Shown: positions 4,347 through 16,391 of the stretch, piece by piece | Numbering within the stretch: position 1 is the stretch's first letter | How the letters are laid out: each line of letters opens with the position of its first letter | Source: a virus | IMG/VR virus record: IMGVR_UViG_3300025645_000055 | Coordinates: 9,386-73,385 of that record | Length of the DNA: 64,000 nucleotides | Strand: one strand, 5' to 3' | Notes under the pieces: model-generated | Databases searched by the model: none | What the model saw: the letters and a program-made list of their open reading frames with translations, nothing else | What the model was told of the DNA's origin: nothing | Program-made: the position numbers and the translations under genes

Positions 4347-4367
4347 TATAGTGAACAAATAGAGATT

Positions 4368-4402
4368 AAAAAAAGGGTTAACATATGTTAACCCTTTTTT
4401 TT
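4368..4402. terminator. Palindromic, probably bidirectional terminator
   Basis: aaaaaaagggttaacatatgttaacccttttttt. Confidence 0.75.
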
Positions 4403-4470
4403 ATTTAAATTAATTTGGTAGTCTCATTTATTTAACTTATCTTTGTATTATATAAATAAACAAAAACAAA

Positions 4471-6231
4471 ATGAAATTAAAACAATTATTATTATTCGGA
4501 ATTTTAACCTTAGTAATGGGGTTAACAAATGTTAACGCACAAGACTTTTATCTAAACGCTAATGGTGTCACTTGTATGTGTCCAACGGCAAATATTGGTG
4601 ATAGTGGTGTTGTTAATGGTGTTACCTATACTAAAAGAATCGCAACCGAAATAACCGATGTGAACGCATCTACTACTTGTACGAGTGGTATAACAGATAT
4701 GTCATATTTGTTTGATTCTCATTTTTCTTTTAATGGTGACATTGGAAGTTGGGATGTGAGTGATGTTATAAATATGAGTGGGATGTTTTGGGTTGCAACT
4801 GATTTTAACCAAAATATAGGAAGTTGGGATGTAAGTAATGTTATTAATATGGACAATATGTTTCGAGAAACAACTTCATTCAATCAATATTTGGGGGATT
4901 GGGATGTAAGTAATGTGATTAATATGGAGGTTATATTTTATGAATCACAATCTATTAATCAAGATTTTAGTAATTGGCAATTTAATCCTAATGTTAATTT
5001 GAATTATTTATTCAGTAAATCTGGGTTGGATACTGATAATTATGATTCCTTATTACAATCCTTTGTGAATCAGAATCTTTTAAATAAAGAGATGGTTGCT
5101 GAAGATTTAACATATTGTAATGAAACCCCCAGAAATGAATTACTCAATAATATGGGGTGGATAATTACTGAAGATTTATATCTTCAACCTAATTTAGTAG
5201 CACCAATTAATCTAAATATTGAACCCAACCCAACGACTTGTGTTGCTACTGGTGTAGACCTTGGCACACCATCCACTACAAATGGGTGTGGTGTTGGTGT
5301 TGTGACTAATAACGCACCTACTGAGTTCCCAATAGGTGAAACAATAGTTACTTGGACACTTACTGATGGAAATGGTATTACGGATACAGACACACAACTT
5401 GTTACAGTTACATTATCTGTTGATGTTGCTGAGGTTTGTTATGTGACCAGTGATGATGTTGTGGTAACTAATAATAGAATCTTTCTTTTTAATATCGATG
5501 GTCAAAATGTTGACAATTACGAAGTATTAAGAGAAACAACAACGGGTGGAGTTTATGAAACAATAGGTTTTATCATACCACCAGCAAATTCATTTTTAGA
5601 CACTACTTCCAATAATAACACTCAAGCATATCGTTACAAAGTTCAAACTTTAGATGTGTGTGGTGCAATGTCAATTGAATCACCTTATCATAAAACAATA
5701 TTATTACAAAGTAGTATTGCAGCAAATCAAACAATAAATCTTAGTTGGACACCATATGTTGGTACTGATTATACCACATATAATATTTTCAAACAGATTA
5801 ATGGTGGAACGTTTGAATTATTCACTTCAATAGCTTCAACGAATTTAACATATAATGATATTGATGTGGACATAGCATTAAATGACTATGCATACTTTGT
5901 TTCAATTGATGTTGGTGGTTGTGTCGGAACACCATTTATGTCAGAGTCGATTAAATCAAATCAAGATGGTACATTAATACTTGGTATTAATGATAATGAA
6001 CAATTGGAAAAATCAATTATATTATTTCCAAATCCAACGAGTTCAATAGTTAATATTGAATTACCAGATGATTTAACATTAAATGAAGTTAATATAATAA
6101 ACAATCTTGGTCAAATAGTTGCCCAATATAATAGTAAGTCTTTTAATATCGAAGCATTATCAACTGGATTATATTTTTTAAATATCAATACCAGTAAAGG
6201 AAGTTTCGTTAAACGTTTAATTAAAAACTAA
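4471..6231 (+). CDS. BspA/DUF285 repeat surface protein with HYR/FN3-like domains and a T9SS type A C-terminal sorting domain
   Basis: Signal peptide ending AQ; WDVSNVINM repeats; FPIGETIVTWT; C-terminal FPNPTSS...LSTGLYFLNI...KRLIKN. Confidence 0.9.
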   Translation: MKLKQLLLFGILTLVMGLTNVNAQDFYLNANGVTCMCPTANIGDSGVVNGVTYTKRIATEITDVNASTTCTSGITDMSYLFDSHFSFNGDIGSWDVSDVINMSGMFWVATDFNQNIGSWDVSNVINMDNMFRETTSFNQYLGDWDVSNVINMEVIFYESQSINQDFSNWQFNPNVNLNYLFSKSGLDTDNYDSLLQSFVNQNLLNKEMVAEDLTYCNETPRNELLNNMGWIITEDLYLQPNLVAPINLNIEPNPTTCVATGVDLGTPSTTNGCGVGVVTNNAPTEFPIGETIVTWTLTDGNGITDTDTQLVTVTLSVDVAEVCYVTSDDVVVTNNRIFLFNIDGQNVDNYEVLRETTTGGVYETIGFIIPPANSFLDTTSNNNTQAYRYKVQTLDVCGAMSIESPYHKTILLQSSIAANQTINLSWTPYVGTDYTTYNIFKQINGGTFELFTSIASTNLTYNDIDVDIALNDYAYFVSIDVGGCVGTPFMSESIKSNQDGTLILGINDNEQLEKSIILFPNPTSSIVNIELPDDLTLNEVNIINNLGQIVAQYNSKSFNIEALSTGLYFLNINTSKGSFVKRLIKN

Positions 6232-6238
6232 AAACATT

Positions 6239-7006
6239 ATGAAAATATTAAAACCTTTTGAGGTTGTAGAAACAAAAACAAAATATGCTATCATATTTGG
6301 GTGGTTATTATTGTTATTTGGAAGTTGGTTATGGTATGGTTTATCAGAAACCCATATGTTCCCAACACTTCCACAAGTTGGTGATGGATTTGTGGGTCTG
6401 TGGAATGAAGGGTTAGTAACCCACATATTTAGTTCACTAGCACTTTGTGGTAAAGCAGTGGTATTAGCAATCATAGTTGCATTATCATTTGTTTATTTAT
6501 CACCATTACCATTAATTCAACCAATAGCACATATGTTATCTAAATTTAGATATCTACCACTTACTGGTGTTGCTTTTTATATTACAATGGTTATTTCTGG
6601 TGGACGAAGTATTCAAGTATGGATACTTGTGGTATTTATGACAACATATTTAACCACCTCACTTTTATCGATGTTAAAAGACATTAAAGAAGAAGAATTT
6701 GACCACGCTAGAGCACTTGGGTGTAACAGATGGGAAATACTTTGGGAAGTAGTTGTTAAAGGTAGATTAGATTATGTAATCGAAATGGTTAGACAAAACC
6801 TTGCTATCGTATGGATGATGCTTGTTACAGTAGAAAGTATTATGGCATCGGCTGGTGGACTTGGATTTCTTATTAAGAATTCAGATAAGTTCATGAATCA
6901 CGGTAGAATCATTGCATTACAAATAGTAATATTAGGTGTAGGACTTAGTATGGATTATTTTCTTACAACAACAAGAAGATTATTATTTAGATATTCAAAA
7001 ATATAA
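6239..7006 (+). CDS. ABC transporter permease (NitT/TauT family)
   Basis: Multiple TMs; EAA-like loop DHARALGC; ESIMASAGGLGF. Confidence 0.9.
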   Translation: MKILKPFEVVETKTKYAIIFGWLLLLFGSWLWYGLSETHMFPTLPQVGDGFVGLWNEGLVTHIFSSLALCGKAVVLAIIVALSFVYLSPLPLIQPIAHMLSKFRYLPLTGVAFYITMVISGGRSIQVWILVVFMTTYLTTSLLSMLKDIKEEEFDHARALGCNRWEILWEVVVKGRLDYVIEMVRQNLAIVWMMLVTVESIMASAGGLGFLIKNSDKFMNHGRIIALQIVILGVGLSMDYFLTTTRRLLFRYSKI

Positions 7007-7009
7007 ATT

Positions 7010-7171
7010 ATGACTAAAAAAAACCATTTCGGGTTTTGGTTAATAATATTAGGTCTAATACATTTGATGTTAACATTAATATTTGAAGGACAATTTGGTA
7101 TTGATATGGCGTGGTATTGGTTTATCATTAGTTTAACAACGATATTCATTGGAATATATTTATACGAATAA
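7010..7171 (+). CDS. Small two-TM membrane protein (53 aa, not in ORF track)
   Basis: MTKKNHFGFWLIILGLIHLML...YLYE read by hand; fills the gap between neighbouring genes. Confidence 0.6.
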   Translation: MTKKNHFGFWLIILGLIHLMLTLIFEGQFGIDMAWYWFIISLTTIFIGIYLYE

Positions 7172-7173
7172 TT

Positions 7174-7479
7174 ATGAAGTTTACAAGAGAACAATTTGAC
7201 GAATTAGGACCCCTTCATGTAGATGATTTTCCTATTGATAGTTCCAACCAAGATATAATGTTTAATCTATTCAATAGTCTAGATGAATATCTTCAAGGAA
7301 TGGCACTTCAACACGGTTTTAGTGATAGTGTTTTTAGAGACGATTTATTTGAGTGTTTATGTGATAAACTATTAGGTATGACTTGTGAAGAATACTATAA
7401 GAGTGATATTGGTAAGGATTATTTTGATAATGGTGAAACAATAGAACTTGATTTTACCATTATCAAGGGGTGGATATAA
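7174..7479 (+). CDS. Hypothetical protein
   Basis: ORF in operon context. Confidence 0.7.
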   Translation: MKFTREQFDELGPLHVDDFPIDSSNQDIMFNLFNSLDEYLQGMALQHGFSDSVFRDDLFECLCDKLLGMTCEEYYKSDIGKDYFDNGETIELDFTIIKGWI

Positions 7480-7507
7480 AATATTAATAATATAAATAAT
7501 TAAAAAC

Positions 7508-8338
7508 ATGCAATACGAATTAAAAGACACTATATTATATTTAGACAAAGTTGAGTTAGGATATGGTAGTGGTAAAAATTATAAAACAGTCCTTAAGGAT
7601 GTTAATATAGTTGAAAAAGATGTGGTTAGAGATGGTCATGTAACGGGTCAAGTGATTGCCGTTGTTGGAAGAAGTGGTAGGGGAAAGTCTACCCTATTTA
7701 AAGCCATGACTGGTCTTGTAAAACCTCATAGTGGGGAAGCATTGATTACTGAGTTGGATAGTCCAGAGGGTGATGATGCAAAGAATGTAGAAGAGGGTGA
7801 TGTAGGTTTTGTAGACCAGAAATATACCTTATTCAGACATAAGACAGTTGAACAAATATTTCGCTACGCACTTAGAAAAAGTGGATTAACCAAGGTTGAG
7901 AAAACTGAAAAGGTTAATCGATATTTAGGTGAGTGGGGATTAGAAAAACAACGTAAGCAATACCCGATTGAATTATCTGGTGGGCAAAGACAACGTACTG
8001 CAATCATTGAACAAATTCTTTCATCTGGACACTTTATGGTATTAGATGAACCGTTCTCTGGATTGGATGTTGGAAACATTAGAGATGTAAAAAGGTCTAT
8101 CGAATTAATTAAGAAAGACCACGAATTAAACACTATCATCTTCTCAACACATGAGTTAAGACTTGCAGTTGAATTGGCAGATAGTATATATGTAGTTGGT
8201 TACCCAGAGGGAACAACTGATTATGCGACAATCGTTAAACATTACGATTTAAAAGAAATGGGAATAGCTTGGACAGAGTATGGTCAAGCCCACATTGATT
8301 TAGTTGCAGATATTGATAATACAATGATGAATTCATAA
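7508..8338 (+). CDS. ABC transporter ATP-binding protein
   Basis: Walker A GRSGRGKST, signature LSGGQRQR, Walker B MVLDEPF, H-loop STH. Confidence 0.95.
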   Translation: MQYELKDTILYLDKVELGYGSGKNYKTVLKDVNIVEKDVVRDGHVTGQVIAVVGRSGRGKSTLFKAMTGLVKPHSGEALITELDSPEGDDAKNVEEGDVGFVDQKYTLFRHKTVEQIFRYALRKSGLTKVEKTEKVNRYLGEWGLEKQRKQYPIELSGGQRQRTAIIEQILSSGHFMVLDEPFSGLDVGNIRDVKRSIELIKKDHELNTIIFSTHELRLAVELADSIYVVGYPEGTTDYATIVKHYDLKEMGIAWTEYGQAHIDLVADIDNTMMNS

Positions 8339-9055
8339 ATGGCAAGAGAAACCTTACTTAGTGGAAAAGCATATGATAATTGTGAAATGCAATCTATCAA
8401 TGGTGATTTTTTAGCTTTTACCAGCTTCAAAAGAATGAATTGGTATGTTAGTAGAGGTTTAGCCGAAGTTATTGATGACAACAAGTATCAATTAAATTTT
8501 GTGACCAATGGGGATTTCGGTGATAAGAGTGATTACTATCGATTAAAACTAGAGAATAAATGTGTTATATGTGGTGATGAAGATAATTTAACTAAGCACC
8601 ACATCGTACCATATCAATTTAGAAAGTTTATTCCAATGAAATATAAAAAGGGGTTATCCCGTGATGTGGTTTGTATATGCCATGGTTGTCATAAAGATTA
8701 TGAAACAATAGCAGACATCTTTAAGGAAGAACTACTAATCAAGTATGATTTGGTTGATGACTTAAATATTAGTAACACCCTTGGTAAGTATTTTAATACA
8801 CTTAAGAATTATAGTCACTATCAAACTAAAGAAACAATAGAACGTTTATCTAGTTTTATAACAACACATGTTGGTAGACCAATTGATGAAGTACTTAAAG
8901 ATGATTGGTTAGAAACAGTCGATACTTCTAAAAAATTGGTTGATTTAGTTAATGTTGATGACTTTATTATTTTATGGAGAAACCATTTTATAGAAACAAC
9001 AGAACCAAAGTACTTACCAGAAGAATGGGTTAAGGACATAAATAGAGTAATATAA
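8339..9055 (+). CDS. HNH-like zinc-binding protein resembling the EXD2 C-terminal domain
   Basis: YDNC..WY..ENKCVICG..HHIVP..FRK..DVVCICHGCH..WRNHF..PKYLP motif order. Confidence 0.75.
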   Translation: MARETLLSGKAYDNCEMQSINGDFLAFTSFKRMNWYVSRGLAEVIDDNKYQLNFVTNGDFGDKSDYYRLKLENKCVICGDEDNLTKHHIVPYQFRKFIPMKYKKGLSRDVVCICHGCHKDYETIADIFKEELLIKYDLVDDLNISNTLGKYFNTLKNYSHYQTKETIERLSSFITTHVGRPIDEVLKDDWLETVDTSKKLVDLVNVDDFIILWRNHFIETTEPKYLPEEWVKDINRVI

Positions 9056-9234
9056 TGGCAGAAAGAAAAACAAAGTGTGATGTGTGTGATAGTACTAAAT
9101 TTATAATTCAACATACTATACCCCAAAAAATGTTAGTCAAACAATTACAAATGGTACAAGCTAAATGTATATGTGGTAATATTTTTGAGTTCGTAAGACG
9201 CACACCTGGAGTGGGTAGAGGCAGAATTCTATAA
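9055..9234 (+). CDS. Small zinc-ribbon protein (59 aa, not in ORF track)
   Basis: CDVC...CICG; start overlaps the previous stop (taatg). Confidence 0.6.
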   Translation: MAERKTKCDVCDSTKFIIQHTIPQKMLVKQLQMVQAKCICGNIFEFVRRTPGVGRGRIL

Positions 9235-9261
9235 ATTTTTTAAAAGTTTTTCCAAAAAGAC

Positions 9262-9551
9262 TTGCTTTTTATAAAAAGTTGTCTTATATTTGTACCATAA
9301 TAATTACAATGACTTGTAGTCGGGGGCTTCTAATCAAACGGGAGTTATACGTAATCATACTGGAAATGGAAGTGTAAGTCTTCCCAGGTCAACAAAAAAA
9401 AATAAATTAAAAGTTTTTTAAATAAAACTTGCTTTATTAAAATAATAGTTCTATATTTGCACTGTTGTTAATTTGAAAGACAACGAAAAAAAATATATTA
9501 AAAGTTTTTTAAAAAAAACTTGCTTTATTAAAATAATAGTCTTATATTTGC
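9262..9551 (+). promoter_or_regulatory. Three tandem Bacteroidota sigma70-type promoters driving the RNA island
   Basis: cttgc-N~18-tatatttg at about 9262-9292, 9429-9459 and 9520-9550; the last two are near-identical ~50-bp repeats. Confidence 0.8.
9310..9392 (+). ncRNA. tRNA-like RNA with atypical D and anticodon regions
   Basis: Acceptor tgacttg/caggtca; T-like arm ggaag-tgtaagt-cttcc. Confidence 0.5.
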
Positions 9552-9576
9552 AGAGTCGTTTAGAAATAGATGACAC

Positions 9577-9592
9577 GTTCATTAAAATATTG
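9577..9592 (+). promoter_or_regulatory. boxA-like antitermination element
   Basis: gttcattaaaatattg between the promoters and the giant RNA; second copy at 11644-11662. Confidence 0.5.
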
Positions 9593-9597
9593 AAAAT

Positions 9598-10575
9598 ATG
9601 GGGTGCTTATACTCCAGTCTTCGGACAAGGATAGACCAGCAATGGTTTAAAGTAGTAGATTTAGTGTCTATTGCGTTGCATTAACCCTTCGGGGTTAGAC
9701 AATCCACGTAAGCATGATTACCAAACCGTATCAAGGGCATCTGCTGAGATACGAAACCCACAACTTATGGGGATTGAGTAGAAATACAATAGTAAGGTAG
9801 TTAGAATCAGATATCCTAAAAGGGGGTATTGTTTGACTAAACGGTGTAAAAGCTATTGGTTGGATTCATTAAGAAATTTTATGGGACTTATCTTCGGGTA
9901 ATAAGTGAAATGATTAACATGATGGTAAAACATTATATCGAGGCGTTGTATTCTTAACCACTCAAAAGGTGGCACGAATGTCAACCAGCAGACACGTCTT
10001 GAAACTTAGAGTGAGGCTTATACCAGAGTTAAATGGTGCATTTTTTTTTGATAAAAATAAAAAGAGAAAGTTCTGTTGGACTAGAACTGAAAATTAAGTT
10101 ATGCCGTTGAAATATATGGCTGGTTGATTCCTCTCAAGGGATGAGATTAAATTTGATGAGTACATGTCATAAGGAACGGGGTCGCACTCGTTTATTCTCG
10201 CAAGGAACCTGGGCAAAGAAAGCTAGATTATATAAGTTCTATGTAGCAGAGTTATGGTCACTCTAAGACCAACTTAATGTTATCTACTTGAAGGAAACTG
10301 ATAGTGTGTGAAAAAGCTGAAAGGCATATAAATGATAACGGGGGCAACCCACTTGCTGAACACTCAAGCATAAATCTGGGCGTACTACTTCAACTTGTTG
10401 GAGGGAGTGCAATAGGTTCAAATCCTTTTACGCCCACTAAATTATATTTCGAGAGTACTAGATAACAAATTCCAGTCGATGTACTCGTTAAGAACCTATC
10501 CGCAAGATAGGAATATACCCAAGAGTAATGGATTGTGAGGGAATTGTATAATTTAAACTAAGAATCTCATCATAT
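9598..10575 (+). ncRNA. Giant structured ncRNA, GOLLD-like
   Basis: About 980 nt with no ORF of 60 aa or more; UUCG/GNRA hairpins; long-range pairs 9603-10/9708-15, 9740-46/9986-92, 9699-9706/10529-36, 10140-48/10563-71; next to tRNAs and enclosing a tRNA-like element. Confidence 0.7.
10378..10436 (+). ncRNA. D-armless tRNA-like element, copy 1, inside the giant RNA
   Basis: gggcgta/tacgccc acceptor; agg-ttcaaat-cct T arm; one central hairpin. Confidence 0.65.
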
Positions 10576-10631
10576 GGATGAATATAAGCTTTGTAATGAA
10601 GATTATTTTAAATAAGTTGAGGTTTTTAAAC

Positions 10632-10700
10632 GGGGATTTCGTCTAAGACAAAGGCAGCACCACACCAGGTGTTAATGAAGTATCGAACCTTCAATCCCCA
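10632..10700 (+). ncRNA. tRNA-like RNA with a 6-nt ACACCA loop
   Basis: Cloverleaf ggggatt/aatcccc, gtct/aggc, gcacc/ggtgt, gaag/cttc. Confidence 0.7.
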
Positions 10701-10780
10701 CAAATATAGTTGGTTGGACTATAATAGGATTATGGTACCCCTTTGAAGGGTTTAATGTTAGAAACTTAATTTTATAAACT

Positions 10781-10848
10781 GCGAGTTTCGTCTAAGCTAA
10801 GACGCTATCCCACCAGATAGAAATGAAGTATCGAATCTTCGACTTGCA
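10781..10848 (+). ncRNA. tRNA-like RNA with a 6-nt CCACCA loop
   Basis: Cloverleaf gcgagtt/gacttgc, gtct/agac, ctatc/gatag, gaag/cttc; paralog of 10632-10700. Confidence 0.7.
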
Positions 10849-10852
10849 CAAA

Positions 10853-11021
10853 TTTTGAAGTGGTGAAAGGAAGACACCCTACGGAATATAAAACTGTCCT
10901 TTGAGAATGGTGTGTGGAGCAACTGTGATTAGTACCTCCAACAGTAAAGTAGAGTCTAACCGACTAATAATCAAAAAGTCGGAACAATTAGAATAGTTAG
11001 TTTCATGGCTAACCTTCAAAA
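10853..11021 (+). ncRNA. Expanded tRNA-like RNA (~170 nt)
   Basis: Closing stem ttttgaag/cttcaaaa; Leu-like 5' end gtggtgaaaggaagacac; terminal hairpin gttagt/gctaac. Confidence 0.45.
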
Positions 11022-11023
11022 AT

Positions 11024-11082
11024 GGGCGTACTATCACAAGTTATTGTGAGAAGTGTGTTAGGTTTAAATCCTTTTACGCCCA
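11024..11082 (+). ncRNA. D-armless tRNA-like element, copy 2
   Basis: Same acceptor and T arm as 10378-10436 but a different central hairpin (tcacaa/ttgtga). Confidence 0.65.
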
Positions 11083-11112
11083 CTATAGTTTCGAAAACTT
11101 AAATTGAGAAAC

Positions 11113-11187
11113 CGAGAGGTAGCTCAGTTTGCTCAGAGCGTCACCCATTGGGGGTGGAGGTCGTTGGTTCGAATCCAACCCTCTCGA
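11113..11187 (+). tRNA. Atypical tRNA with a Pro-type acceptor (C1:G72, A73) and anticodon loop CATTGGG
   Basis: Full cloverleaf with TTCGAAT; A33; TTG at the canonical anticodon position; no D-loop GG. Confidence 0.7.
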
Positions 11188-11276
11188 CAAAAATTAAAAT
11201 AAATTAACAAAAAACGTAACTTTAATATAGTTACACATATTTAATAGAAAGGGATAAACCCTAAACAATAGAAATT

Positions 11277-11381
11277 ATGATGAATTATACGACAACATAT
11301 CAAAAGCAGTATCCGCAAGGGGGGAAACCTAGTGGGCTGGACTTGTCGTGTATTTACTCTAAAGGTAAAACAGGTGTGTAA
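11277..11381 (+). CDS. Putative attenuator leader peptide MMNYTTTYQKQYPQGGKPSGLDLSCIYSKGKTGV
   Basis: 34-codon ORF after an A-rich start context (gaaattatg), overlapping alternative stems upstream of a terminator. Confidence 0.75.
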   Translation: MMNYTTTYQKQYPQGGKPSGLDLSCIYSKGKTGV

Positions 11382-11408
11382 ATAAATCAATTACATAACT
11401 TAAACGGT

Positions 11409-11445
11409 AAGCTCAGCTATAAAGAAATTTAGTTGGGCTTTTTTC
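11409..11445 (+). terminator. Intrinsic terminator (attenuator) ahead of the tRNA array
   Basis: aagctcagcta...tagttgggctt plus T-tract; first tRNA starts 16 nt later. Confidence 0.85.
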
Positions 11446-11460
11446 ATGCCCAAATTTCAA

Positions 11461-11555
11461 CGGGTAATGTGCGAGTGGTTTAAGCAATCGGTCTTGGAAG
11501 CCGATGACAATTTCAAGAAGGTTATTGTCCGTAGGTTCGAATCCTACTTACCCGA
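11461..11555 (+). tRNA. tRNA-Pro(TGG) with a long variable arm (class II-like body)
   Basis: cgggtaa/ttacccg, loop CTTGGAA, variable stem gacaat/attgtc, T arm gtagg-ttcgaat-cctac. Confidence 0.8.
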
Positions 11556-11563
11556 CTAAACAT

Positions 11564-11636
11564 CGGGATGTATATCAATTGGTAGATTACGTGCTTTGGG
11601 AGTACGAGGTTGCTGGTTCGAGTCCAGTCATCCCGA
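11564..11636 (+). tRNA. tRNA-Pro(TGG)
   Basis: Canonical cloverleaf, loop TTTGGGA. Confidence 0.95.
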
Positions 11637-11643
11637 CAGAATG

Positions 11644-11662
11644 AAAGTTCATTGACATGTTG
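11644..11662 (+). promoter_or_regulatory. boxA-like antitermination element
   Basis: aaagttcattgacatgttg, resembling Bacteroidota rrn boxA as recalled. Confidence 0.55.
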
Positions 11663-11732
11663 GTTAAGTAAAATATAGAAGTCTAGGGAGCCATTGCTCT
11701 TAAAACGTCCAACCTAGAAACTTCTATAATAT

Positions 11733-11805
11733 TGGGATATGGTGTAATTGGTAACACGTCTGTTTTTGGTGCAGAAGAGTATGGGTTCGAGACCCGTTGT
11801 CCCAA
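11733..11805 (+). tRNA. tRNA-Gln(TTG)
   Basis: Cloverleaf, loop TTTTGGT, U1:A72. Confidence 0.9.
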
Positions 11806-11812
11806 CTAATAT

Positions 11813-11885
11813 TGCCCTATGGTATAACGGTTAATACGTCTGGTTTTGAACCAGAAGATTGGGGGTTCGAATCCGTCTAGGGTAA
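11813..11885 (+). tRNA. tRNA-Gln(TTG)
   Basis: Cloverleaf, loop TTTTGAA. Confidence 0.9.
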
Positions 11886-11958
11886 CAATAAAGATATTTG
11901 GGAGACTGTTATTAATTCATAGAACCTATTGCGAGTGGTATCATAGAATTAAAATTAT

Positions 11959-12031
11959 TGGGGTATGGTGTAATGTGTAACATTCAAGATTTTGGTCCTT
12001 GAGAGTGTCGGTTCGAGTCCGTCTACCCCAA
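11959..12031 (+). tRNA. tRNA-Gln(TTG)
   Basis: Cloverleaf, loop TTTTGGT. Confidence 0.9.
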
Positions 12032-12182
12032 CTATATTGTGTGCGTAACTAAGGTATTTAGGAGTATACATAACAAGTAGTTGACTTAGTACTATCAATG
12101 AAAAGTATGTGGAAAATGATACAGTTTGAACGGAATCCCATGTTGGGGAGAGATATGAGTGCAAGCCTCATCAATATAAATT

Positions 12183-12264
12183 GGGAGTATTGAGCAACTG
12201 GTTGCTCAGCAGACTGTAAATCTGTGGTCTTACGACATTGGGGGTTCGAATCCCTCTACTCCCA
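12183..12264 (+). tRNA. tRNA-Tyr(GTA)
   Basis: gcaga-CTGTAAA-tctgt; variable arm; TTCGAAT. Confidence 0.92.
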
Positions 12265-12269
12265 CAATT

Positions 12270-12350
12270 GGGAACTAAAAGCCATTCGGATATGGCATCG
12301 GGACTGTAAATCTCGTCCTTCGGGGAGTGGTTCGAGTCCACTAGGTCCCA
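12270..12350 (+). tRNA. tRNA-Tyr(GTA) with an atypical D arm
   Basis: cggga-CTGTAAA-tctcg; variable hairpin cc-ttcg-gg; T arm agtgg/ccact. Confidence 0.85.
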
Positions 12351-12423
12351 CAATTGGTCACAGATGAAACGACCAGTCTTCACAGAAAGACTTCCTCATG
12401 AGGGGATATAAATAAAGCTGCAT

Positions 12424-12493
12424 GGGTTGTGAAAGGATACTAGCCGAGGTTGTAACCCTCTAGCTTTGTAGGGTTCGAGTCCCTATCAGCCCA
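12424..12493 (+). tRNA. Degenerate or atypical tRNA-Tyr(GTA) with a reduced D arm
   Basis: gggttg/cagccc; gagg-TTGTAAC-cctc; taggg-ttcgagt-cccta. Confidence 0.6.
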
Positions 12494-12498
12494 CAACT

Positions 12499-12631
12499 TG
12501 ACTATAATTGGTCGGCAATGTTAATGTAGTGTTTGAGAGCAAACCGTATAATCTCGGCAAACCATCATTAATGAATGAGTTATGTATGTTACATCATAAC
12601 CTTTTGTGGGGTTCGACTCCCCAATGGTCAA
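12499..12631 (+). ncRNA. Expanded tRNA-like RNA (~133 nt)
   Basis: tgactat/atggtca acceptor; canonical T arm tgggg-ttcgact-cccca; two internal hairpins. Confidence 0.6.
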
Positions 12632-12667
12632 CACGCTAGGCTAGTAAGTGTCCAACACGCTAGGCTA
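12629..12667 (+). repeat. Direct repeat caacacgctaggcta, two copies
   Basis: Seen directly between tRNA genes. Confidence 0.7.
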
Positions 12668-12671
12668 ATAT

Positions 12672-12743
12672 TCCTTCGTAACTCAGAGGCAGAGTACCGT
12701 GCTTTTAACACGGGAGTCGTGATATCGTAATTCACCGAGGGAA
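12672..12743 (+). tRNA. tRNA-Lys(TTT) with an atypical T loop
   Basis: ccgtg-CTTTTAA-cacgg; T loop atcgtaa. Confidence 0.8.
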
Positions 12744-12822
12744 CAAAAATTAGTAGCATATGCTCGATGAACGACTATGTACATGTAAGTAGGGATACTA
12801 GTCATGTTACTAATTTTAATTT

Positions 12823-12895
12823 GCACCCGAAGCTCAAGTGGACGGGCTTCCCGCTTTTAACGGGAAGGTTACGGGTTCGAGGCCCGTGGGGTGCA
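12823..12895 (+). tRNA. tRNA-Lys(TTT)
   Basis: tcccg-CTTTTAA-cggga; T arm acggg/cccgt. Confidence 0.88.
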
Positions 12896-12900
12896 CAAAT

Positions 12901-12984
12901 GCGATGTTAGTGTAAGTCAAAGATTCTAGATTAAACACGCAACCCATAGGGGTTGAGATGGGGGTTCAAGTCCTTTGCATCGCT
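12901..12984 (+). ncRNA. Gly-acceptor tRNA-like RNA with an enlarged D loop and a 6-nt anticodon loop
   Basis: gcgatgt/gcatcgc plus U73; caacc-catagg-ggttg. Confidence 0.6.
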
Positions 12985-12989
12985 CAAAT

Positions 12990-13083
12990 GATAGTATAGT
13001 GAAATATTCTGTGTAGACGTACATATAAAAATCACACCTTCTGCTTAGGTTGGAATAATTGGTATGAAATCCAATTACTATCT
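12990..13083 (+). ncRNA. tRNA-like RNA with a D-loop hairpin insertion and a degenerate anticodon arm
   Basis: gatagta/tactatc; gtga/tcac enclosing tgtgta-gacg-tacata; T-like arm attgg/ccaat. Confidence 0.55.
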
Positions 13084-13088
13084 TAATT

Positions 13089-13159
13089 GCCGATATCGTA
13101 TAACGGTATTACGTGCCCTTGGTAGGGGTGAAATCTCAGCTCGTTTCTGAGTATCGGCT
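13089..13159 (+). tRNA. tRNA-Thr(GGT)
   Basis: gccgata/tatcggc; loop TTGGTAG; T loop ctcgttt. Confidence 0.85.
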
Positions 13160-13160
13160 C

Positions 13161-13316
13161 TAAGTTTATTAATAAGTGGGTAAAACCTTGAGGCATCCCC
13201 CTCGGACTATGACGGCTTATATTTGACGATATAAGTGTTCAAGTTTCTGGTCAAGCAATGCACCAGGTTTGGTGGAATCACCTTACAAAAGCGAGGATTA
13301 ATATTAATAGACTTAA
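13161..13316 (+). ncRNA. Unknown structured RNA (~155 nt) between tRNAs
   Basis: 13-bp closing stem taagtttattaat/attaatagactta enclosing GC-richer hairpins. Confidence 0.5.
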
Positions 13317-13318
13317 CT

Positions 13319-13401
13319 GCGAATATCGTATAATGGAGGGGAAACCCGTATTATAGTGGCCTTCCAAGTCACGGATGAGAGTTCGATTCTCTCTATTCGC
13401 T
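13319..13401 (+). tRNA. tRNA-Gly(TCC) with a GAAA hairpin in the D loop
   Basis: Loop CTTCCAA; U73; insert ggg-gaaa-ccc. Confidence 0.88.
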
Positions 13402-13409
13402 CAATAATT

Positions 13410-13496
13410 GCCTCTATAGCTCAGTTGGTTTGGCGAAAGCCTTAGAGCAGCCCCCTTTTAAGGGGCAGGTCGTAGGTTCGAATCCTACTGGGGGTA
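13410..13496 (+). tRNA. tRNA-Lys(TTT) with a GAAA hairpin in the D loop
   Basis: gcccc-CTTTTAA-ggggc; insert ggc-gaaa-gcc. Confidence 0.88.
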
Positions 13497-13555
13497 CTAA
13501 GTTAGTTATGACATTATGATTTGAGGCTTAATCATCCTCTTTAACTAACTTTATT

Positions 13556-13626
13556 GCGAGATGTAGCTTAATGGCAAAGCATCGGCCTTCCAAGTCGAGG
13601 ATGCGGTTCGACCCCGACATTTCGCA
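13556..13626 (+). tRNA. tRNA-Gly(TCC) with an 8-bp acceptor and short T stem
   Basis: gcgagatg/catttcgc; loop CTTCCAA; A73. Confidence 0.75.
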
Positions 13627-13634
13627 CTAAAAAT

Positions 13635-13720
13635 GCCCCCCTAGTATAATGGAGACGAAAGTCGTATTACCTTGGATTTGTAACCCAAAGATATCAGTTC
13701 GATTCTGATGGGGGGCTCCA
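13635..13720 (+). tRNA. tRNA-Thr(TGT) with a GAAA hairpin in the D loop; CCA encoded
   Basis: Loop TTTGTAA; insert gac-gaaa-gtc. Confidence 0.88.
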
Positions 13721-13725
13721 TACCA

Positions 13726-13810
13726 GCCGATGTCGCATAGTGGTCTATTGCACTTGATTTGTAATCAAGAGAAAGAAATTTCATCGTCAGTTCGAATCTG
13801 ACCATCGGCT
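13726..13810 (+). tRNA. tRNA-Thr(TGT) with a long variable arm
   Basis: cttga-TTTGTAA-tcaag; variable stem gaaa-gaaa-tttc. Confidence 0.88.
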
Positions 13811-13825
13811 CACATATTTATTAGT

Positions 13826-14287
13826 ATGAAAAACTTAATCAACAAAATCTGGGCGTTCATCAAACTAATGCTACCTAATAGCTGGTTTCCAGAAGACGTA
13901 ATAATTTACGCTATCGAAGATGATATGAAATCGTGGAAACTTATTGAAGTTCTCATTGTTAGAGAAATAAATAAGTATAGAATCGAAAATGGTCTTAAAC
14001 CAGTATCTGGTGAGTTAAACACCAAGCTAGAAACAAAGATAAGAAGCGACTTTATGTCGGATGAAGAAAAACTATCCCACGATGGTTTTGGTGTATCATC
14101 AAGAAGACTTAAAGATATGGGGTTTAAAAGTGTTGGTGAAATTATAGCCTATGGTTATACAAATGGTGGTGATGTGGTTCATGCTTGGAAAAATAGTCCA
14201 AGTCATAATCGTGTATTACTTGGAAATTATAAATACCTGGGTGTTAGTAAAACTGATAGATATTATTGTGTAATATTTACCAGATAA
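13826..14287 (+). CDS. CAP/SCP domain protein
   Basis: INKYRIENGL, LSHDGF, GEIIAYG, WKNSPSHNRVLL. Confidence 0.9.
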   Translation: MKNLINKIWAFIKLMLPNSWFPEDVIIYAIEDDMKSWKLIEVLIVREINKYRIENGLKPVSGELNTKLETKIRSDFMSDEEKLSHDGFGVSSRRLKDMGFKSVGEIIAYGYTNGGDVVHAWKNSPSHNRVLLGNYKYLGVSKTDRYYCVIFTR

Positions 14288-14289
14288 AT

Positions 14290-14400
14290 GCGAGTGTAGC
14301 TCAGTTGGTTAGAGCGTTATTTAAATCATGCGGGAGTAGCTCAATGGTAGAGCGATACGTTACCAACGTATAGGTTGAGGGTTCGAATCTGATTACTCGC
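14290..14400 (+). pseudogene. Chimeric tRNA: 5' fragment (14290-14317) plus a tRNA-Gly(ACC) body (14330-14400)
   Basis: atacg-TTACCAA-cgtat; the 3' end tactcgc pairs with the upstream gcgagtg, not with its own 5' end. Confidence 0.65.
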
Positions 14401-14406
14401 CAAATT

Positions 14407-14434
14407 AAGGATGACATAAATGTTATCCTTTTTT
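14407..14434 (+). terminator. Terminator closing the tRNA array
   Basis: aaggatgacat-aa-atgttatcctt plus T-tract. Confidence 0.8.
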
Positions 14435-14469
14435 ATTTGTTTTATTCGATTAATTGAACTATATTTGTT

Positions 14470-14540
14470 AAATGATAGGAGTATGAGTCCGTACATAAAA
14501 ATTGGTCGAATAGGACATCGCTACCAAAACCTATCATTTT
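14470..14540 (+). ncRNA. Three-way-junction leader RNA with a possible kissing loop
   Basis: aaatgatagg/cctatcattt; loop gtcc complementary to loop ggac; starts just after the promoter tatatttg. Confidence 0.45.
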
Positions 14541-14562
14541 TTAATAAATAAAACAAAGAATT

Positions 14563-14802
14563 ATGATTAGAATTATTAAAGTATTAATGGATTTCGGGAT
14601 GGATTTTGAATATGAAAATCGTGGGTCTGAAGGTGAGAAGATTGTTTCCTATGAACTAGGGTTAGATATATCCAACCAAAATGGTAAGATATATTACTCT
14701 TGTGGTTGTGAACCAGAAACAGTTGAAGATGTAGATTTTGAATACATGCGACTTGCTAGTGAAGTACAAGACGAATGTATCGCACAAACAGCATCCTTTT
14801 AA
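14563..14802 (+). CDS. Hypothetical protein
   Basis: ORF with A-rich start context. Confidence 0.7.
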   Translation: MIRIIKVLMDFGMDFEYENRGSEGEKIVSYELGLDISNQNGKIYYSCGCEPETVEDVDFEYMRLASEVQDECIAQTASF

Positions 14803-14803: not shown

Positions 14804-15127
14804 ATGAGTGATGATGTAGCTTGCCCATATTGTGGCACATACCAAGAGATTAACCACGATGATGGTTATGGGTATGAAGAAGATGGAAATCATGAACAAC
14901 AATGTTATAATTGTGAAAAGAATTTTATCTTCACAACCGCAATAATATATCATTATGAAGGTTATAAAGCAGATTGTTTGAATGGTGATGAACACTTATA
15001 TAAACCAGTGCCAACTGCACCTAGGTGTTACGCTAAAATGAGGTGTGAAATGTGTGGTATTGAAAGAGAACCAACGGAAGATGAAAAAGTAACATATAGT
15101 ATACCAGAAAAACCGAATTATGATTAA
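14804..15127 (+). CDS. Zinc-ribbon phage protein
   Basis: CPYC, CYNC, CEMC; start moved to 14804. Confidence 0.75.
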
Positions 15128-16391
15128 AAACCCAACCATAGCAATAATAGGATTAGGATATGTTGGGCTACCACTTGCCGTTGCTTTTGCAAAAAAGTAT
15201 AAGGTGATTGGTTTTGATATTGATAATAAACGAGTATCACAATTACAAGAAGCATTTGATTCAACATTAGAGATGAGTTCACCAGAACTAATAGAGGTGT
15301 TACACCCAAATGGTTTAACTGTTACAACAGACCCATATGTCCTTGGTAAAGCAGATGTTTTTATCATTGCAGTTCCAACACCAACAAATCATAATAATGA
15401 GTCTGTATTAACACCACTTATTAAGGCATGTGAGAATGTTGCATGTGTACTTGAAAAAAATAAGGTTGTGATTATAGAATCAACTGTATACCCAGGTGTT
15501 ACAGAAGATATTCTAGTTCCAATACTTGAAAAAGAATCTGGTCTTAAATTCAATGAAGATTTCTTCGTTGGTTATTCACCAGAAAGAATCAACCCAGGTG
15601 ATAAGAAACACACAGTTACAAAGATACTTAAGGTTACATCTGGTTCAACACCAGAGTCTGCCAAATACATAGATGAACTATATGCATCAATCATTACGGC
15701 TGGTACATACTTAGCACCATCTATTAAAGTGGCAGAAGCAGCGAAGGTAATTGAGAACACCCAAAGAGACATTAACATAGCATTTATGAATGAATTGGCT
15801 AAGATATTTAGTCTATTGGATATTGATACTAAAGAGGTGTTGGATGCTGCTGCAACCAAGTGGAATTTCTTAAAATTTACACCAGGTCTTGTTGGTGGTC
15901 ATTGTATTGGGGTTGACCCATATTACTTGGCTCAAAAAGCAAGGGCAGAGGGTTATAACCCAGAGTTAATATTAGCAGCTCGTAGACTTAACGATGGTAT
16001 GGGTGCTTATGTTGGTAGAGAAGTCATCAAGTTGATGATTAAACACAATAAACAAATAAATGGTGGTAATGTATTGGTTTTGGGAATTACTTTTAAAGAG
16101 AATTGTCCAGACATTAGAAATACCAAGGTGGTTGATATTGTTTCAGAGTTAGAGAAATTCTACGTTAATGTAGATGTATATGACCCTTGGGCAAATCATG
16201 ATGAGGTTGAAGATGTGTTTGGTATAGATTTACTACATGTAGAAGACTTAAATATAAAAAAATATGATGGTATAGTATTAGCCGTTGGACATGATGAGTT
16301 TAAAACAATTATAAATATTAATAACTTTGATGGTGTGGTATATGATGTTAAGTCGTTCCTACCAAAAGAAAATGTAAATGATAGATTATGA
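15120..16391 (+). CDS. UDP-N-acetylhexosamine 6-dehydrogenase (TviB/WbpO family)
   Basis: [35 protein letters not shown]. Confidence 0.95.

What the first reader, a model, noticed from the sequence alone, without database searches (positions are those of the whole stretch)
9598..10575. ~1-kb GOLLD-like giant RNA that base-pairs around an embedded D-armless tRNA-like element
Seen: a stretch with no long ORF, rich in tetraloop hairpins, with long-range complementarities. Two of them (acaatcca 9699-9706 with tggattgt 10529-36; gatgagatt 10140-48 with aatctcatc 10563-71) span the tRNA-like element at 10378-10436, placing it inside the RNA. Established: GOLLD RNAs are large phage-associated RNAs near tRNAs, sometimes contain tRNAs, and form multimeric cages. 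Inference: this is a Bacteroidota-phage GOLLD or a new giant RNA class carrying a non-canonical tRNA-like insert.
Basis: partly seen in the sequence, partly recalled or inferred. Interest (0 to 1): 0.75.

Follow-up and report, generated by a model that had tools for sequence, protein, structure and literature searches.

The report
Phage GOLLD RNA flanked by tRNA-mimic
This is a divergent copy of the known giant phage RNA called GOLLD, highly abundant in lake RNA samples, and the small tRNA-like element lies just past its 3' end, most likely as a cutting signal, rather than inside it.

Summary
There is no ORF of 60 aa or more, there are many tetraloop hairpins, the two complementary pairs sit at the stated coordinates, and a D-armless tRNA-like element (TLE) lies at 10378-10436.

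The "GOLLD-like" call holds. Rfam GOLLD (RF02032) matches 9938-10370 over the full model, at 57 bits and E about 1e-13. That is below the curated cut-off of 150. In 22 distinct relatives from phage and metagenome contigs, 58 of 74 pairs of the GOLLD 3'-domain structure show compensatory changes.

The "RNA pairs around an embedded TLE" reading does not hold:
- The GOLLD model ends 7 nt before the TLE.
- Both 5' arms of the proposed long-range pairs sit in conserved, covarying local GOLLD helices.
- Both 3' arms lie in 10437-10629, which has no homolog except a 98.6%-identical strain.
- In three metatranscriptome runs, contig depth falls from 381-1235 over the GOLLD body to 0-30 before 10378. 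A DNA run stays flat at about 12.

In 11 of 13 close relatives, a tRNA or tRNA-like element starts 5-7 nt after the GOLLD terminal hairpin.

Best reading: a GOLLD RNA of about 0.8-0.9 kb from a freshwater Bacteroidota jumbo phage, whose 3' end is set by RNase P-type cleavage at the adjacent tRNA mimic. It is a new member of a known family.

The parts
9261..9292 (+). Promoter repeat P1 (CTTG..N18-19..TATATTTG, Bacteroidota -33/-7 type). It lies upstream of a possible 82-nt tRNA-shaped RNA, X0.
   Evidence: Three-copy 80-nt direct repeat. Motif CTTGN{17,20}TANNTTTG: 6 matches, all on +, against 1.34 expected, with 0 of 100 shuffles reaching 6. That this consensus is the Bacteroidota one is recalled knowledge.
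9310..9391 (+). X0: candidate tRNA-shaped RNA. It has a 7-bp acceptor-type stem (tgacttg/caggtca) and a GGAAG-UGUAAGU-CUUCC T-arm abutting the 3' strand.
   Evidence: Read from the sequence. Not called by ARAGORN or Rfam. My fold of 9311-9386, which does not include the full 3' acceptor strand, was not better than shuffles. Weak.
9428..9459 (+). Promoter repeat P2; predicted start near 9466.
   Evidence: One RNA-run contig (X7, 835 nt, depth 381) begins at 9477 and runs unbroken into the GOLLD body.
9519..9550 (+). Promoter repeat P3; predicted start near 9557.
   Evidence: The same promoter-plus-leader arrangement is found at -396 to -428 relative to the 3' domain in relatives L095, L138, L092, L084, L151, L130 and L176.
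9557..9597 (+). Conserved single-stranded leader (..CGTTCATTAAAATATTGAAAATA..).
   Evidence: Conserved in sequence in the 9 sequences of alignment A3.
9598..9937 (+). GOLLD 5' domain. It includes the hairpin 9599-9617, the GGAT(9629-32)/ATCC(9702-05) helix, and the conserved motifs GGATAnACCAGCAATGG and GAGTAGAAATACAATA.
   Evidence: Alignment A3 of 9 sequences: 32 predicted pairs, 19 with compensatory changes. The GGAT/ATCC helix is kept 4/4 in 9 of 9 rows and changes to AGAT/ATCT (3 rows) and GAAT/ATTC (1 row).
9938..10370 (+). GOLLD 3' domain: first hairpin with UCAAAAG loop, A/U-rich linker 10003-10072, two pseudoknotted long-range helices, CNCAAGG hairpins, and the terminal hairpin 10355-10369.
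   Evidence: RF02032 positions 1-416 of 416, 57.1 bits, E 9e-14 to 3e-13, cut-off 150. On 22 distinct relatives, 86.8% of cells are paired against 67.7% in shuffles and 37-43% when partners are slid; 58 of 74 pairs carry changes on both sides; 0 of 500 shuffles reach the observed values.
10371..10377 (+). 7-nt spacer (TAAATCT); proposed RNase P cleavage at its 3' edge.
   Evidence: A spacing of 5-7 nt to an acceptor-type stem recurs in 11 of 13 close relatives. High-depth RNA contigs stop at 10341-10368, and one (X7) runs into adapter sequence after 10368. Cleavage itself is inferred.
10378..10436 (+). TLE1: D-armless tRNA-like element. Acceptor stem 7 bp, 6-bp hairpin with CUUG tetraloop, T-loop UUCAAAU, discriminator A.
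   Evidence: Rfam tRNA 17.3 bits, E 3, below the cut-off of 29. Not called by ARAGORN. My model R1 finds 50-nt look-alikes in a second phage lineage, one of them 12 nt after that phage's GOLLD.
10437..10629 (+). It contains local hairpins (GAGTAC..GTACTC; CCTATC-CGCAA-GATAGG).
   Evidence: No similarity in any fetched locus except the 98.6%-identical strain L205. RNA depth is 0 in 2 of 3 RNA runs and 30.5 (against 1218) in the third.
10632..10700 (+). X1: cloverleaf-shaped tRNA-like RNA with a 6-nt loop ACACCA in the anticodon position and an 8-nt T-loop UAUCGAAC.
10781..10848 (+). X2: second copy of the X-type element (loop CCACCA).
11024..11082 (+). TLE2: second copy of the D-armless element, 78% identical to TLE1.
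   Evidence: The strain L205 carries this exact version at the TLE1 position.
11113..14401 (+). tRNA array: 15 genes by ARAGORN, all on +.

Best explanation
The window carries one gene for a divergent GOLLD RNA in a fragment of a freshwater jumbo phage that probably infects Bacteroidota.

Transcription starts at one or both of two tandem Bacteroidota-type promoters, with predicted starts near 9466 and 9557. The RNA folds into a 5' domain (9598-9937) and the conserved GOLLD 3' domain (9938-10370). By homology with solved GOLLD RNAs it is expected to assemble into a multimeric cage; that step is inferred, not tested.

The D-armless tRNA-like element at 10378-10436 is not part of the mature RNA. 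It keeps the acceptor stem and T-arm, which is the part that bacterial RNase P recognises. It most likely serves as a punctuation mark: RNase P cuts at its 5' edge, which releases the GOLLD 3' end, and that end is then trimmed back to the terminal hairpin (about 10368). This is analogous to how MALAT1 is released from mascRNA.

Shown: family relationship, conserved structure, conserved adjacency, high RNA abundance with a sharp drop before the element.
Inferred: the enzyme, the exact ends, cage formation.
For: 1. RF02032 matches 9938-10370 end to end, at E 9e-14 to 3e-13. Relatives score 57.6-96 bits.
2. The GOLLD helices, including the Rfam pseudoknot, are kept on 22 distinct sequences. 58 of 74 pairs have changes on both sides and 86.8% of cells are paired; 0 of 500 shuffles reach this, and slid controls give 37-43%.
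3. A conserved 5' domain preceded by a promoter gives a total of about 815-900 nt.
4. In 11 of 13 close-clade sequences (7 of 9 lineages once near-identical pairs are merged), a 7-bp acceptor-type stem with an abutting T-arm starts 5-7 nt after the terminal hairpin. The rate at random positions is 262 of 9200 (2.8%). The element type varies: a tRNA-Gln called by ARAGORN, a tRNA with a 22-nt insert, X-type mimics, and the TLE. So position and shape are conserved, not decoding parts.
5. RNA. Of 24 runs listed, 22 hold the stretch or part of it and 12 of those are on record as RNA. I laid 3 RNA runs. Contigs of depth 1218, 381 and 1235 cover 9477/9653 to 10341/10368. Depth over 10428-10595 is 30.5, 0 and 0, and over 9000-9419 it is 0 in all three. 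The DNA run stays at 9-25 in every bin, about 12 across the GOLLD body and the element. Adapter sequence follows 10368 in X7 and 10341 in X10.
6. No terminator-like site lies between 10272 and 11400 on the + strand.
7. The two TLE copies differ by compensatory changes in 3 of 6 hairpin pairs, so the fold is under selection.
Against: - The score is far below Rfam's curated cut-off (57 against 150 bits), and no match appears at gathering threshold.
- The RNA data are assembled contigs, not reads. They give one mean depth per contig, no strand and no true ends. Breaks at 10341/10342 coincide with a variant bubble, so only the depth collapse is robust. The tool itself calls such stops a weak hint.
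- One RNA run (X6) has a low-depth contig (30.5, with 10 substitutions and 3 indels, so another strain) running from 10313 through the element to 10727. It could be precursor, read-through or DNA.
- Library size selection would lose a free 59-nt RNA in any case.
- RNase P cleavage is not tested.
- 2 of 13 close relatives lack an element by my strict criteria. L105 has none; L097 has a TLE-like one 12 nt downstream. 0 of 9 distant relatives meet the criteria.
- The 13 sequences are not independent.
Confidence: 0.72

Rival explanations
1. One reading: a single RNA of about 1 kb (9598-10575) whose 5' and central parts pair with sequence downstream of the tRNA-like element, so that the element is an internal insert of a GOLLD or of a new giant RNA.
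For: - Both complementarities exist.
- 8-mer complements spanning the element are somewhat enriched: 8 against 2.3, reached by 3% of shuffles.
- The single-sequence MFE and centroid folds place a 13-nt helix (10153-65 with 10479-91) around the element.
- Embedded tRNAs are known in some GOLLD RNAs, in the linker between domains (passages of PMC12990946, PMC6582537 and 10.1101/2024.12.08.627333).
- One relative (L084) has an 8/8 complement, G-U allowed, to its own arm-1 equivalent downstream.
Against: - Arm 9699-9706 overlaps ATCC, which pairs locally with GGAT 9629-32. That helix is kept 4/4 in 9 of 9 rows, with double changes in 4 rows.
- Arm 10140-48 is the 3' strand of a hairpin in which 5 of 5 pairs covary (helix 8).
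- The 3' arms lie in 10437-10629, which matches nothing but a near-identical strain.
- 7 of 8 relatives show only chance-level complements for arm 1, and 8 of 8 for arm 2. L084's sister L092 lacks the L084 match.
- RNA depth collapses before 10378.
- Known embedded tRNAs sit in the linker, and the linker here (10003-10072) holds none.
Confidence: 0.04
2. The tRNA-like element stays attached in a functional fraction of molecules as a 3' tRNA-like tail, for example to recruit CCA-adding enzyme, EF-Tu or a tRNA-binding partner to the cage, or to present a covalently linked tRNA mimic as suggested for linker tRNAs.
For: - An immediate 3' tRNA or tRNA-like neighbour is conserved in 11 of 13 close relatives.
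- The fold of the element is under selection.
- A contig in run X6 joins 10313 to 10727 through the element.
- Authors of the cryo-EM study propose cages that expose covalently linked tRNAs (discussion and figure-4 legend passages of 10.1101/2024.12.08.627333).
Against: That joining contig has 2.5% of the depth of the GOLLD body and belongs to a variant strain. The other two RNA runs have no cover over the element. The element type is interchangeable between lineages, which fits a generic processing signal better than a specific ligand.
Confidence: 0.12
3. The element is merely a decayed tRNA gene of the array with no role, and the GOLLD 3' end is made some other way (endonuclease such as RNase E, or exonuclease stalling at the terminal hairpin).
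For: - It lacks a D arm and an anticodon loop, and scores below the tRNA cut-off.
- tRNA arrays of phages carry many odd or degenerate tRNAs, as this one does.
- 0 of 9 distant relatives have such a neighbour by my criteria.
Against: - Two copies are kept in the window, with compensatory changes.
- A strain variant carries an exact conversion of one copy into the other while the flanks stay identical.
- The 5-7 nt spacing is fixed across lineages that carry different element types.
- TLE-like 50-nt elements recur in a second lineage.
Confidence: 0.12

Closest known systems
GOLLD RNA (Rfam RF02032; cryo-EM structures of env-38 and Streptococcus agalactiae GOLLD)
   Same: Full-length match to the 3'-domain model. 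It has the same helices and pseudoknot, with covariation, and the same signature loops (UCAAAAG, CGCAAGG, terminal ..ACUCA.. hairpin). It has a variable 5' domain, a total of about 0.8-0.9 kb, phage origin and a position beside a tRNA array (passages).
   Different: Only 57 bits against a cut-off of 150. It belongs to a clade from freshwater, marine and other metagenome and phage contigs whose members score 57-96 bits or are missed by the Rfam search altogether. Multimerisation is untested. An extra GGGGGCAACCC hairpin before the terminal hairpin occurs only in the window and in strain L205.
Mycobacterial GOLLD with an embedded (pseudo-)tRNA in the inter-domain linker
   Same: A GOLLD gene physically coupled to a tRNA-like sequence inside a tRNA cluster (passages of PMC6582537, and PMC12990946).
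   Different: There the tRNA lies inside the RNA, in the linker J13/15. Here the linker holds none, and the element lies 7 nt beyond the 3' end of the model. The primary paper (Morgado 2020) is not held.
MALAT1/MEN-beta with mascRNA (vertebrates): a tRNA-like element that directs RNase P to make the 3' end of a long non-coding RNA
   Same: A proposed working analogy: a long structured RNA followed directly by a non-decoding tRNA-like fold whose 5' edge defines the long RNA's 3' end.
   Different: A different domain of life, with no sequence relationship. The only Rfam mascRNA-menRNA match in the region is a chance-level one at 12300-12349, inside a tRNA-Tyr (23 bits, E 0.29). The mechanism in MALAT1 is recalled knowledge and was not tested here.
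ROOL RNA (the other phage-associated cage-forming RNA near tRNA arrays)
   Same: Same genomic niche and presumed cage biology (passages).
   Different: No ROOL match at E up to 10 in 9200-14600.
Canonical tRNA (RF00005)
   Same: 7-bp acceptor stem, T-loop UUCAAAU, discriminator base, location in a tRNA array.
   Different: No D arm. The anticodon arm is replaced by a 6-bp hairpin with a 4-nt loop. 17.3 bits against a cut-off of 29. Not called by ARAGORN.

Membership tests
GOLLD RNA (RF02032) | Statistically significant, full-length match to the family covariance model | tested here: met
   9938-10370 on +, model positions 1-416 of 416, 57.1 bits; E 2.7e-13 (5.4 kb searched), 9.2e-14 (1.9 kb), 8.5e-16 (one genome). 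The cryo-EM study collected GOLLD sequences at E below 1e-5 (methods passage).
GOLLD RNA (RF02032) | Score at or above Rfam's curated gathering cut-off (150 bits) | tested here: not met
   57.1 bits, and no GOLLD row at gathering threshold. This is a curation threshold, not a biological feature. Relatives reach 57.6-96 bits.
GOLLD RNA (RF02032) | Conserved 3'-domain helices and pseudoknot, supported by covariation | tested here: met
   74 pairs in 16 helices on 22 distinct sequences. 86.8% of cells are paired, 58 pairs have changes on both sides, 0 of 500 shuffles reach this, and slid controls give 37-43%. The pseudoknot helix (columns 178-183 with 362-367) is weakest at 65.5% paired, but 6 of 6 of its pairs covary.
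GOLLD RNA (RF02032) | Signature conserved loops and linker motifs | tested here: met
   The UCAAAAG loop is invariant in 22 of 22 sequences. AAAG..AAAGU, CNCAAGG, CGCAAGG and the ..ACUCA.. terminal loop are aligned to the model's upper-case positions.
GOLLD RNA (RF02032) | Variable 5' domain upstream, giving an RNA of roughly 700-850 nt | tested here: met
   340-nt structured 5' domain preceded by a promoter. RNA contig of 835 nt covering 9477-10311. Sizes of known GOLLDs come from passages. No model of the published 5' domain was available for comparison.
GOLLD RNA (RF02032) | Phage or prophage location near tRNA genes | tested here: met
   Virus record of 73,385 bases, phage protein families, 15 tRNA genes starting 743 nt downstream.
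GOLLD RNA (RF02032) | Self-assembly into a closed homo-oligomeric cage | not testable with these tools
   Known only from cryo-EM of other members.
tRNA (for the element 10378-10436) | Cloverleaf with D arm and 7-nt anticodon loop; score above the family cut-off | tested here: not met
   No D arm, and a 4-nt loop in place of the anticodon loop. 17.3 bits against 29. Not called by ARAGORN.
tRNA-like 3'-end processing element (mascRNA-type function) | RNase P cleavage at its 5' edge releases the upstream RNA | not testable with these tools
   Consistent with, but not shown by, the depth collapse before 10378 and the fixed 5-7 nt spacing in 11 of 13 relatives.
ROOL RNA | Match to the Rfam ROOL model | tested here: not met
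   No ROOL row at E up to 10.

The most novel reading that the evidence does not exclude
GOLLD and a non-decoding tRNA mimic form a conserved two-part module in this phage clade. The mimics are the 59-nt D-armless TLE, or the X-type cloverleaf with an 8-nt UAUCGAAY T-loop and a 5-8-nt loop where the anticodon would be. In this reading they are not only cutting signals. They are products in their own right, made stoichiometrically with the cage RNA, and they act as its cargo or as decoys for host tRNA-targeting defences. Supporting hints: X-type elements also have their own promoter upstream of GOLLD in relatives L095/L138, and they recur twice more in the window.
Probability: 0.12. Interest if true: 0.75.

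Novelty: new member of a known kind. Interest (0 to 1): 0.4.

Why it matters
GOLLD is one of the largest bacterial or phage RNAs with no known function, and it was recently shown to build RNA-only cages. This copy adds three usable facts.

1. A divergent clade exists in large phages of aquatic Bacteroidota. The curated Rfam threshold misses it, and it supplies many new sequences for covariation analysis.
2. The RNA is very abundant in natural lake metatranscriptomes: contig depth is hundreds to over a thousand while neighbouring phage genes read zero. So it is made in quantity during real infections.
3. Its 3' end coincides with a tRNA or tRNA mimic at a fixed distance. That gives a simple, testable rule for how GOLLD is cut out of tRNA-array transcripts, and it explains why the family sits beside tRNAs.

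None of this overturns current views.

Tried and rejected
- blastn of 9235-11110 against cultured phage genomes: no match.
- Exact 18-mer of the element in viral contigs: 0 hits.
- Single-protein searches for related loci with the upstream 238-aa protein and the 639-aa nuclease: none confirmed.
- GOLLD search of records found through the A1-like marker protein: 2 of 49 matched, with one further handle not held. The first look scored at most 21 candidates in large records, so absences are weak.
- Of the 18 new viral-contig records found with the 17-mer, only 4 matched RF02032. nhmmer with a clade profile later showed that at least 4 of the 14 'negatives' (L084, L085, L092, L096) carry divergent copies.
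- cmscan in E-value mode did not list the L083 copy that the genome search had found, presumably because of filters.
- Three cultured Flavobacteriia phages with the closest marker protein (Cellulophaga phi17:2_18, phi13:1, Maribacter Panino): 0 of 3 matched, with no first-look candidates. This is no proof of absence.
- My first, loose acceptor-stem scan hit 30% of random positions and was discarded for a stricter one.
- Single-sequence folding of the 978 nt gave no significant z-score and placed a window-specific long-range helix that relatives do not support.
- MAFFT misaligned part of the 5' domain by one column, so the GGAT/ATCC helix was counted with anchored motif extraction instead.
- Parts of the stretch without RNA contig cover in X6 and X10 (9477-9652) are not interpreted.
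- Morgado 2020 is not held. Supplements, including the list of 806 GOLLD sequences in the cryo-EM study, could not be seen, so this clade may already be in that list.
Full report
**What is in the sequence**

From 9235 to about 14400 the window has no ORF of 60 aa or more. This stretch holds 15 tRNA genes, all on the + strand, from 11113 onward.

Upstream of the finding lie three copies of an 80-nt repeat. Each ends in CTTG..N18-19..TATATTTG. This motif occurs 6 times in the window, always on +, against 1.34 expected. I recall it as the Bacteroidota -33/-7 promoter consensus.

The element at 10378-10436 is real and has a second copy at 11024-11082. The two copies fold alike: a 7-bp acceptor stem, a 6-bp hairpin closed by a tetraloop, and a UUCAAAU T-loop, with no D arm. 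They differ by compensatory changes in 3 of the 6 hairpin pairs.

The complementarities themselves are near chance:
- 20 perfect 8-mer complements, against 10.4 +/- 4.2 in shuffles.
- 8 spanning the element, against 2.3 +/- 2.1; 3% of shuffles reach this.
- Two spanning 9-mers, against 0.5; 14% of shuffles reach this.

**What it is**

At Rfam's curated thresholds only tRNAs are found. With E-value reporting, the GOLLD model RF02032 matches 9938-10370 on the + strand over all 416 model positions, at 57.1 bits and E 9e-14 to 3e-13, against a cut-off of 150 bits. No ROOL match appears at E up to 10.

The Rfam model covers the conserved 3' domain of GOLLD. Published GOLLD RNAs have a variable 5' domain ahead of it and total 700-830 nt (passages of PMC12990946 and 10.1101/2024.12.08.627333). 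The match ends 7 nt before the tRNA-like element.

**Relatives**

The window is part of a 73,385-base virus record with an estimated completeness of 20%. Several observations point to a jumbo phage of Bacteroidota:
- One protein carries a type-IX secretion sorting domain.
- An A1-like DNA-transfer protein has 2739 relatives at E below 1e-20, on contigs of up to 355 kb.
- The closest cultured phages by that protein infect Maribacter and Cellulophaga, at 42-45% identity.

Searching 49 related virus records with RF02032 gave 2 matches. One of them, L083/L095, is syntenic with the window: promoter repeat, conserved leader, 5' domain at 72% identity, 3' domain at 66%, then a similar tRNA order.

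A 17-nt motif shared by three copies found 20 viral and at least 119 metagenome stretches. A clade profile (nhmmer) confirmed 37 hits, which collapse to 25 distinct 3' domains besides the window's. Twenty-two full-length ones were aligned, the window's among them (A2).

**Structure**

RNAalifold on A2 predicts 50 pairs, 37 with compensatory changes. I wrote out the GOLLD helices, including the Rfam pseudoknot and a second crossing helix, and counted them on A2:
- 74 pairs in all, with 86.8% of cells paired.
- Column shuffles give 67.7%, and sliding the partners gives 37-43%.
- 58 pairs have changes on both sides.
- 0 of 500 shuffles reach any of the observed measures.

The 5' domain, aligned for 9 sequences, gives 32 predicted pairs, 19 with compensatory changes. 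It is preceded in relatives by the same promoter and a conserved leader. So this is a genuine, structured GOLLD-family RNA of about 815 nt from promoter P3, or about 900 nt from P2.

**Is the tRNA-like element inside it?**

Four lines of evidence say no.

1. The family model ends at 10370.

   - 9699-9706 overlaps ATCC (9702-05), which pairs with GGAT (9629-32). This helix is kept 4/4 in 9 of 9 rows. It changes to AGAT/ATCT in L151, L130 and L113, and to GAAT/ATTC in L176.
   - 10140-48 is the 3' strand of a hairpin in which all 5 pairs covary (helix 8).

3. The 3' arms lie in 10437-10629.
   - This stretch resembles nothing in any fetched locus except L205, a strain 98.6% identical over 9000-10545.
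   - In 7 of 8 relatives, the arm-1 equivalent has only chance-level complements downstream.
   - The exception, L084, is not shared by its sister L092.
   - Arm 2 is at chance in 8 of 8 relatives.

4. RNA data.
   - Of 24 sequencing runs listed, 22 hold the stretch or part of it, and 12 of those are on record as metatranscriptomes of fresh or other natural waters or sediment.
   - I laid three RNA runs and one DNA run on 9000-11500.
   - In the RNA runs, contigs of mean depth 1218, 381 and 1235 cover the GOLLD body: 9655-10272, 9477-10311 and 9653-10341.
   - Depth is 0 over the upstream genes (9000-9419) in all three.
   - Depth over 10428-10595 is 30.5, 0 and 0.
   - The DNA run stays at 9-25 across the whole stretch, and at about 12 over the GOLLD body and the element.
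   - In X7 a contig ends at 10368 and runs into sequencing adapter. In X10 the same happens at 10341.

   These are contigs, so strand and true ends are not shown, and breaks at 10341/10342 coincide with a variant bubble. The robust point is the 40-fold or greater collapse in depth before 10378. The only cover of the element is a 414-nt contig in X6, at 2.5% of the body's depth and from a variant strain.

**What the element is for**

I compared what follows the terminal hairpin in the relatives.

In 11 of 13 close-clade sequences, a 7-bp acceptor-type stem with an abutting T-arm begins 5-7 nt downstream. That is 7 of 9 lineages once near-identical pairs are merged. The rate at random positions of the same loci is 262 of 9200. 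Of the two exceptions, L097 has a TLE-like element 12 nt downstream and L105 has none. None of the 9 distant relatives meets the criteria, although L117 has a tRNA about 9 nt downstream.

The neighbour is of several kinds:
- a tRNA-Gln called by ARAGORN (L101/L106);
- a tRNA with a 22-nt insert in the anticodon loop (L107);
- an X-type cloverleaf with an odd T-loop (L095, L138, L092, L084, L151, L130);
- a long variant (L113);
- the D-armless TLE (the window and L205).

A covariance model of the two window copies also finds two 50-nt look-alikes in the L082/L097 phage, one of them directly after its GOLLD (E 0.004 and 2e-4).

Position and acceptor/T-arm shape are therefore conserved, while the decoding parts are not. 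No terminator-like site follows the GOLLD on the + strand.

The simplest reading is that the neighbour is the substrate that lets RNase P cut the GOLLD 3' end free from the array transcript, followed by trimming to the terminal hairpin. I recall from the literature that bacterial RNase P accepts acceptor/T-arm minihelices; I did not test this. The vertebrate MALAT1-mascRNA pair works this way, which is also recalled.

**Strain variation**

L205 differs from the window at 23 of 1546 positions. All of them lie in two clusters: 9 in the A/U-rich linker (10021-10059) and 14 in the element (10376-10419). At the element L205 carries the exact TLE2 sequence. The DNA run X2 shows linker differences at positions overlapping those of L205, while all three RNA runs match the window's version there. 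This looks like conversion between the two TLE copies, and it shows the two versions are interchangeable.

**Comparison with what is known**

GOLLD beside tRNA arrays, and (pseudo-)tRNAs embedded in its inter-domain linker, are in print (passages). In three full-text searches I found no paper whose listing describes a tRNA-like element that sets the GOLLD 3' end:
- GOLLD with tRNA: 131 papers, 20 listed.
- GOLLD with RNase P: 7 papers.
- GOLLD with tRNA-like: 2 papers.

I saw only listings for most of these. Morgado 2020 is not held, and supplements are closed.

**Verdict**

- "GOLLD-like" is right; "embedded" and "about 1 kb with long-range pairs" are wrong.
- The object is a new, divergent member of a known family.
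- The useful side result is a conserved tRNA or tRNA-mimic boundary at a fixed distance, together with very high natural expression.

Noticed in passing
window 10632-10700 and 10781-10848; L095 1816-1858 and 2733-2781 (-); L092 6354-6402 (-); L151 3168-3217 (-): A family of cloverleaf-shaped tRNA-like RNAs ('X-type'). Features: 7-bp acceptor stem, a D arm starting UCGNCUAA, an 8-nt T-loop UAUCGAAY (one base more than a normal T-loop), and a loop of 5-8 nt where the anticodon would be (ACACCA, CCACCA, CGUGAAG, CUAUUAAA, UAUUAAA). Neither ARAGORN nor the Rfam tRNA model calls them. In six relatives one sits directly after GOLLD. In L095/L138 another sits between two promoter repeats just upstream of GOLLD.
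   Followed up: partly
window 9310-9391: Behind promoter repeat P1 there is a possible 82-nt tRNA-shaped RNA, with a 7-bp acceptor-type stem and a clean 5-bp T-arm abutting it. No tool calls it, and my fold of 9311-9386 (short of the full 3' acceptor strand) was not better than shuffles.
   Followed up: partly
window 11277-11381 (+); L083 about 1172-1061 (-): A 34-aa ORF inside the tRNA array (MMNYTTTYQKQYPQGG...) has a 36-aa counterpart at the same relative place in the related phage. Several codon differences are synonymous, so it may be a real micro-protein gene.
   Followed up: no
window 11113-11188, 11461-11556, 13438-13496; L082 1999-2072; L107 2784-2857 and 2952-3024: The arrays hold several irregular tRNAs: a tRNA-Gln with A rather than U before the anticodon, a 96-nt tRNA-Pro, a 59-nt match to the tRNA model that ARAGORN skips, and in relatives 'tRNA-???' calls with 6-nt anticodon loops.
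   Followed up: no
window 10021-10059 and 10376-10419, against L205: All 23 differences from a 98.6%-identical strain fall in the GOLLD linker and in the tRNA-like element. The element is replaced by an exact copy of the window's second element, which suggests gene conversion between copies.
   Followed up: yes
window 1913-8338, 15120-16391, 23527-26200, 43702-44616: The phage fragment encodes cell-like functions: an OmpA-domain protein, a DUF285 protein with a type-IX secretion sorting tail, ABC-transporter permease and ATPase, UDP-glucose dehydrogenase, a NUDIX/cytidylyltransferase fusion next to nicotinamide phosphoribosyltransferase, two DNA methyltransferases and a sigma factor.
   Followed up: no
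window 9557-9597 and relatives: A sequence-conserved A/U-rich leader (CGTTCWTTAAAATATTRAAAA) lies between the promoter and the first GOLLD hairpin. It is kept in lineages whose helices have diverged. Its role is unknown.
   Followed up: no
window 10340-10350: A GGGGGCAACCC tetraloop hairpin is inserted just before the terminal GOLLD hairpin. It is present only in the window and its strain variant among the 22 aligned sequences.
   Followed up: no
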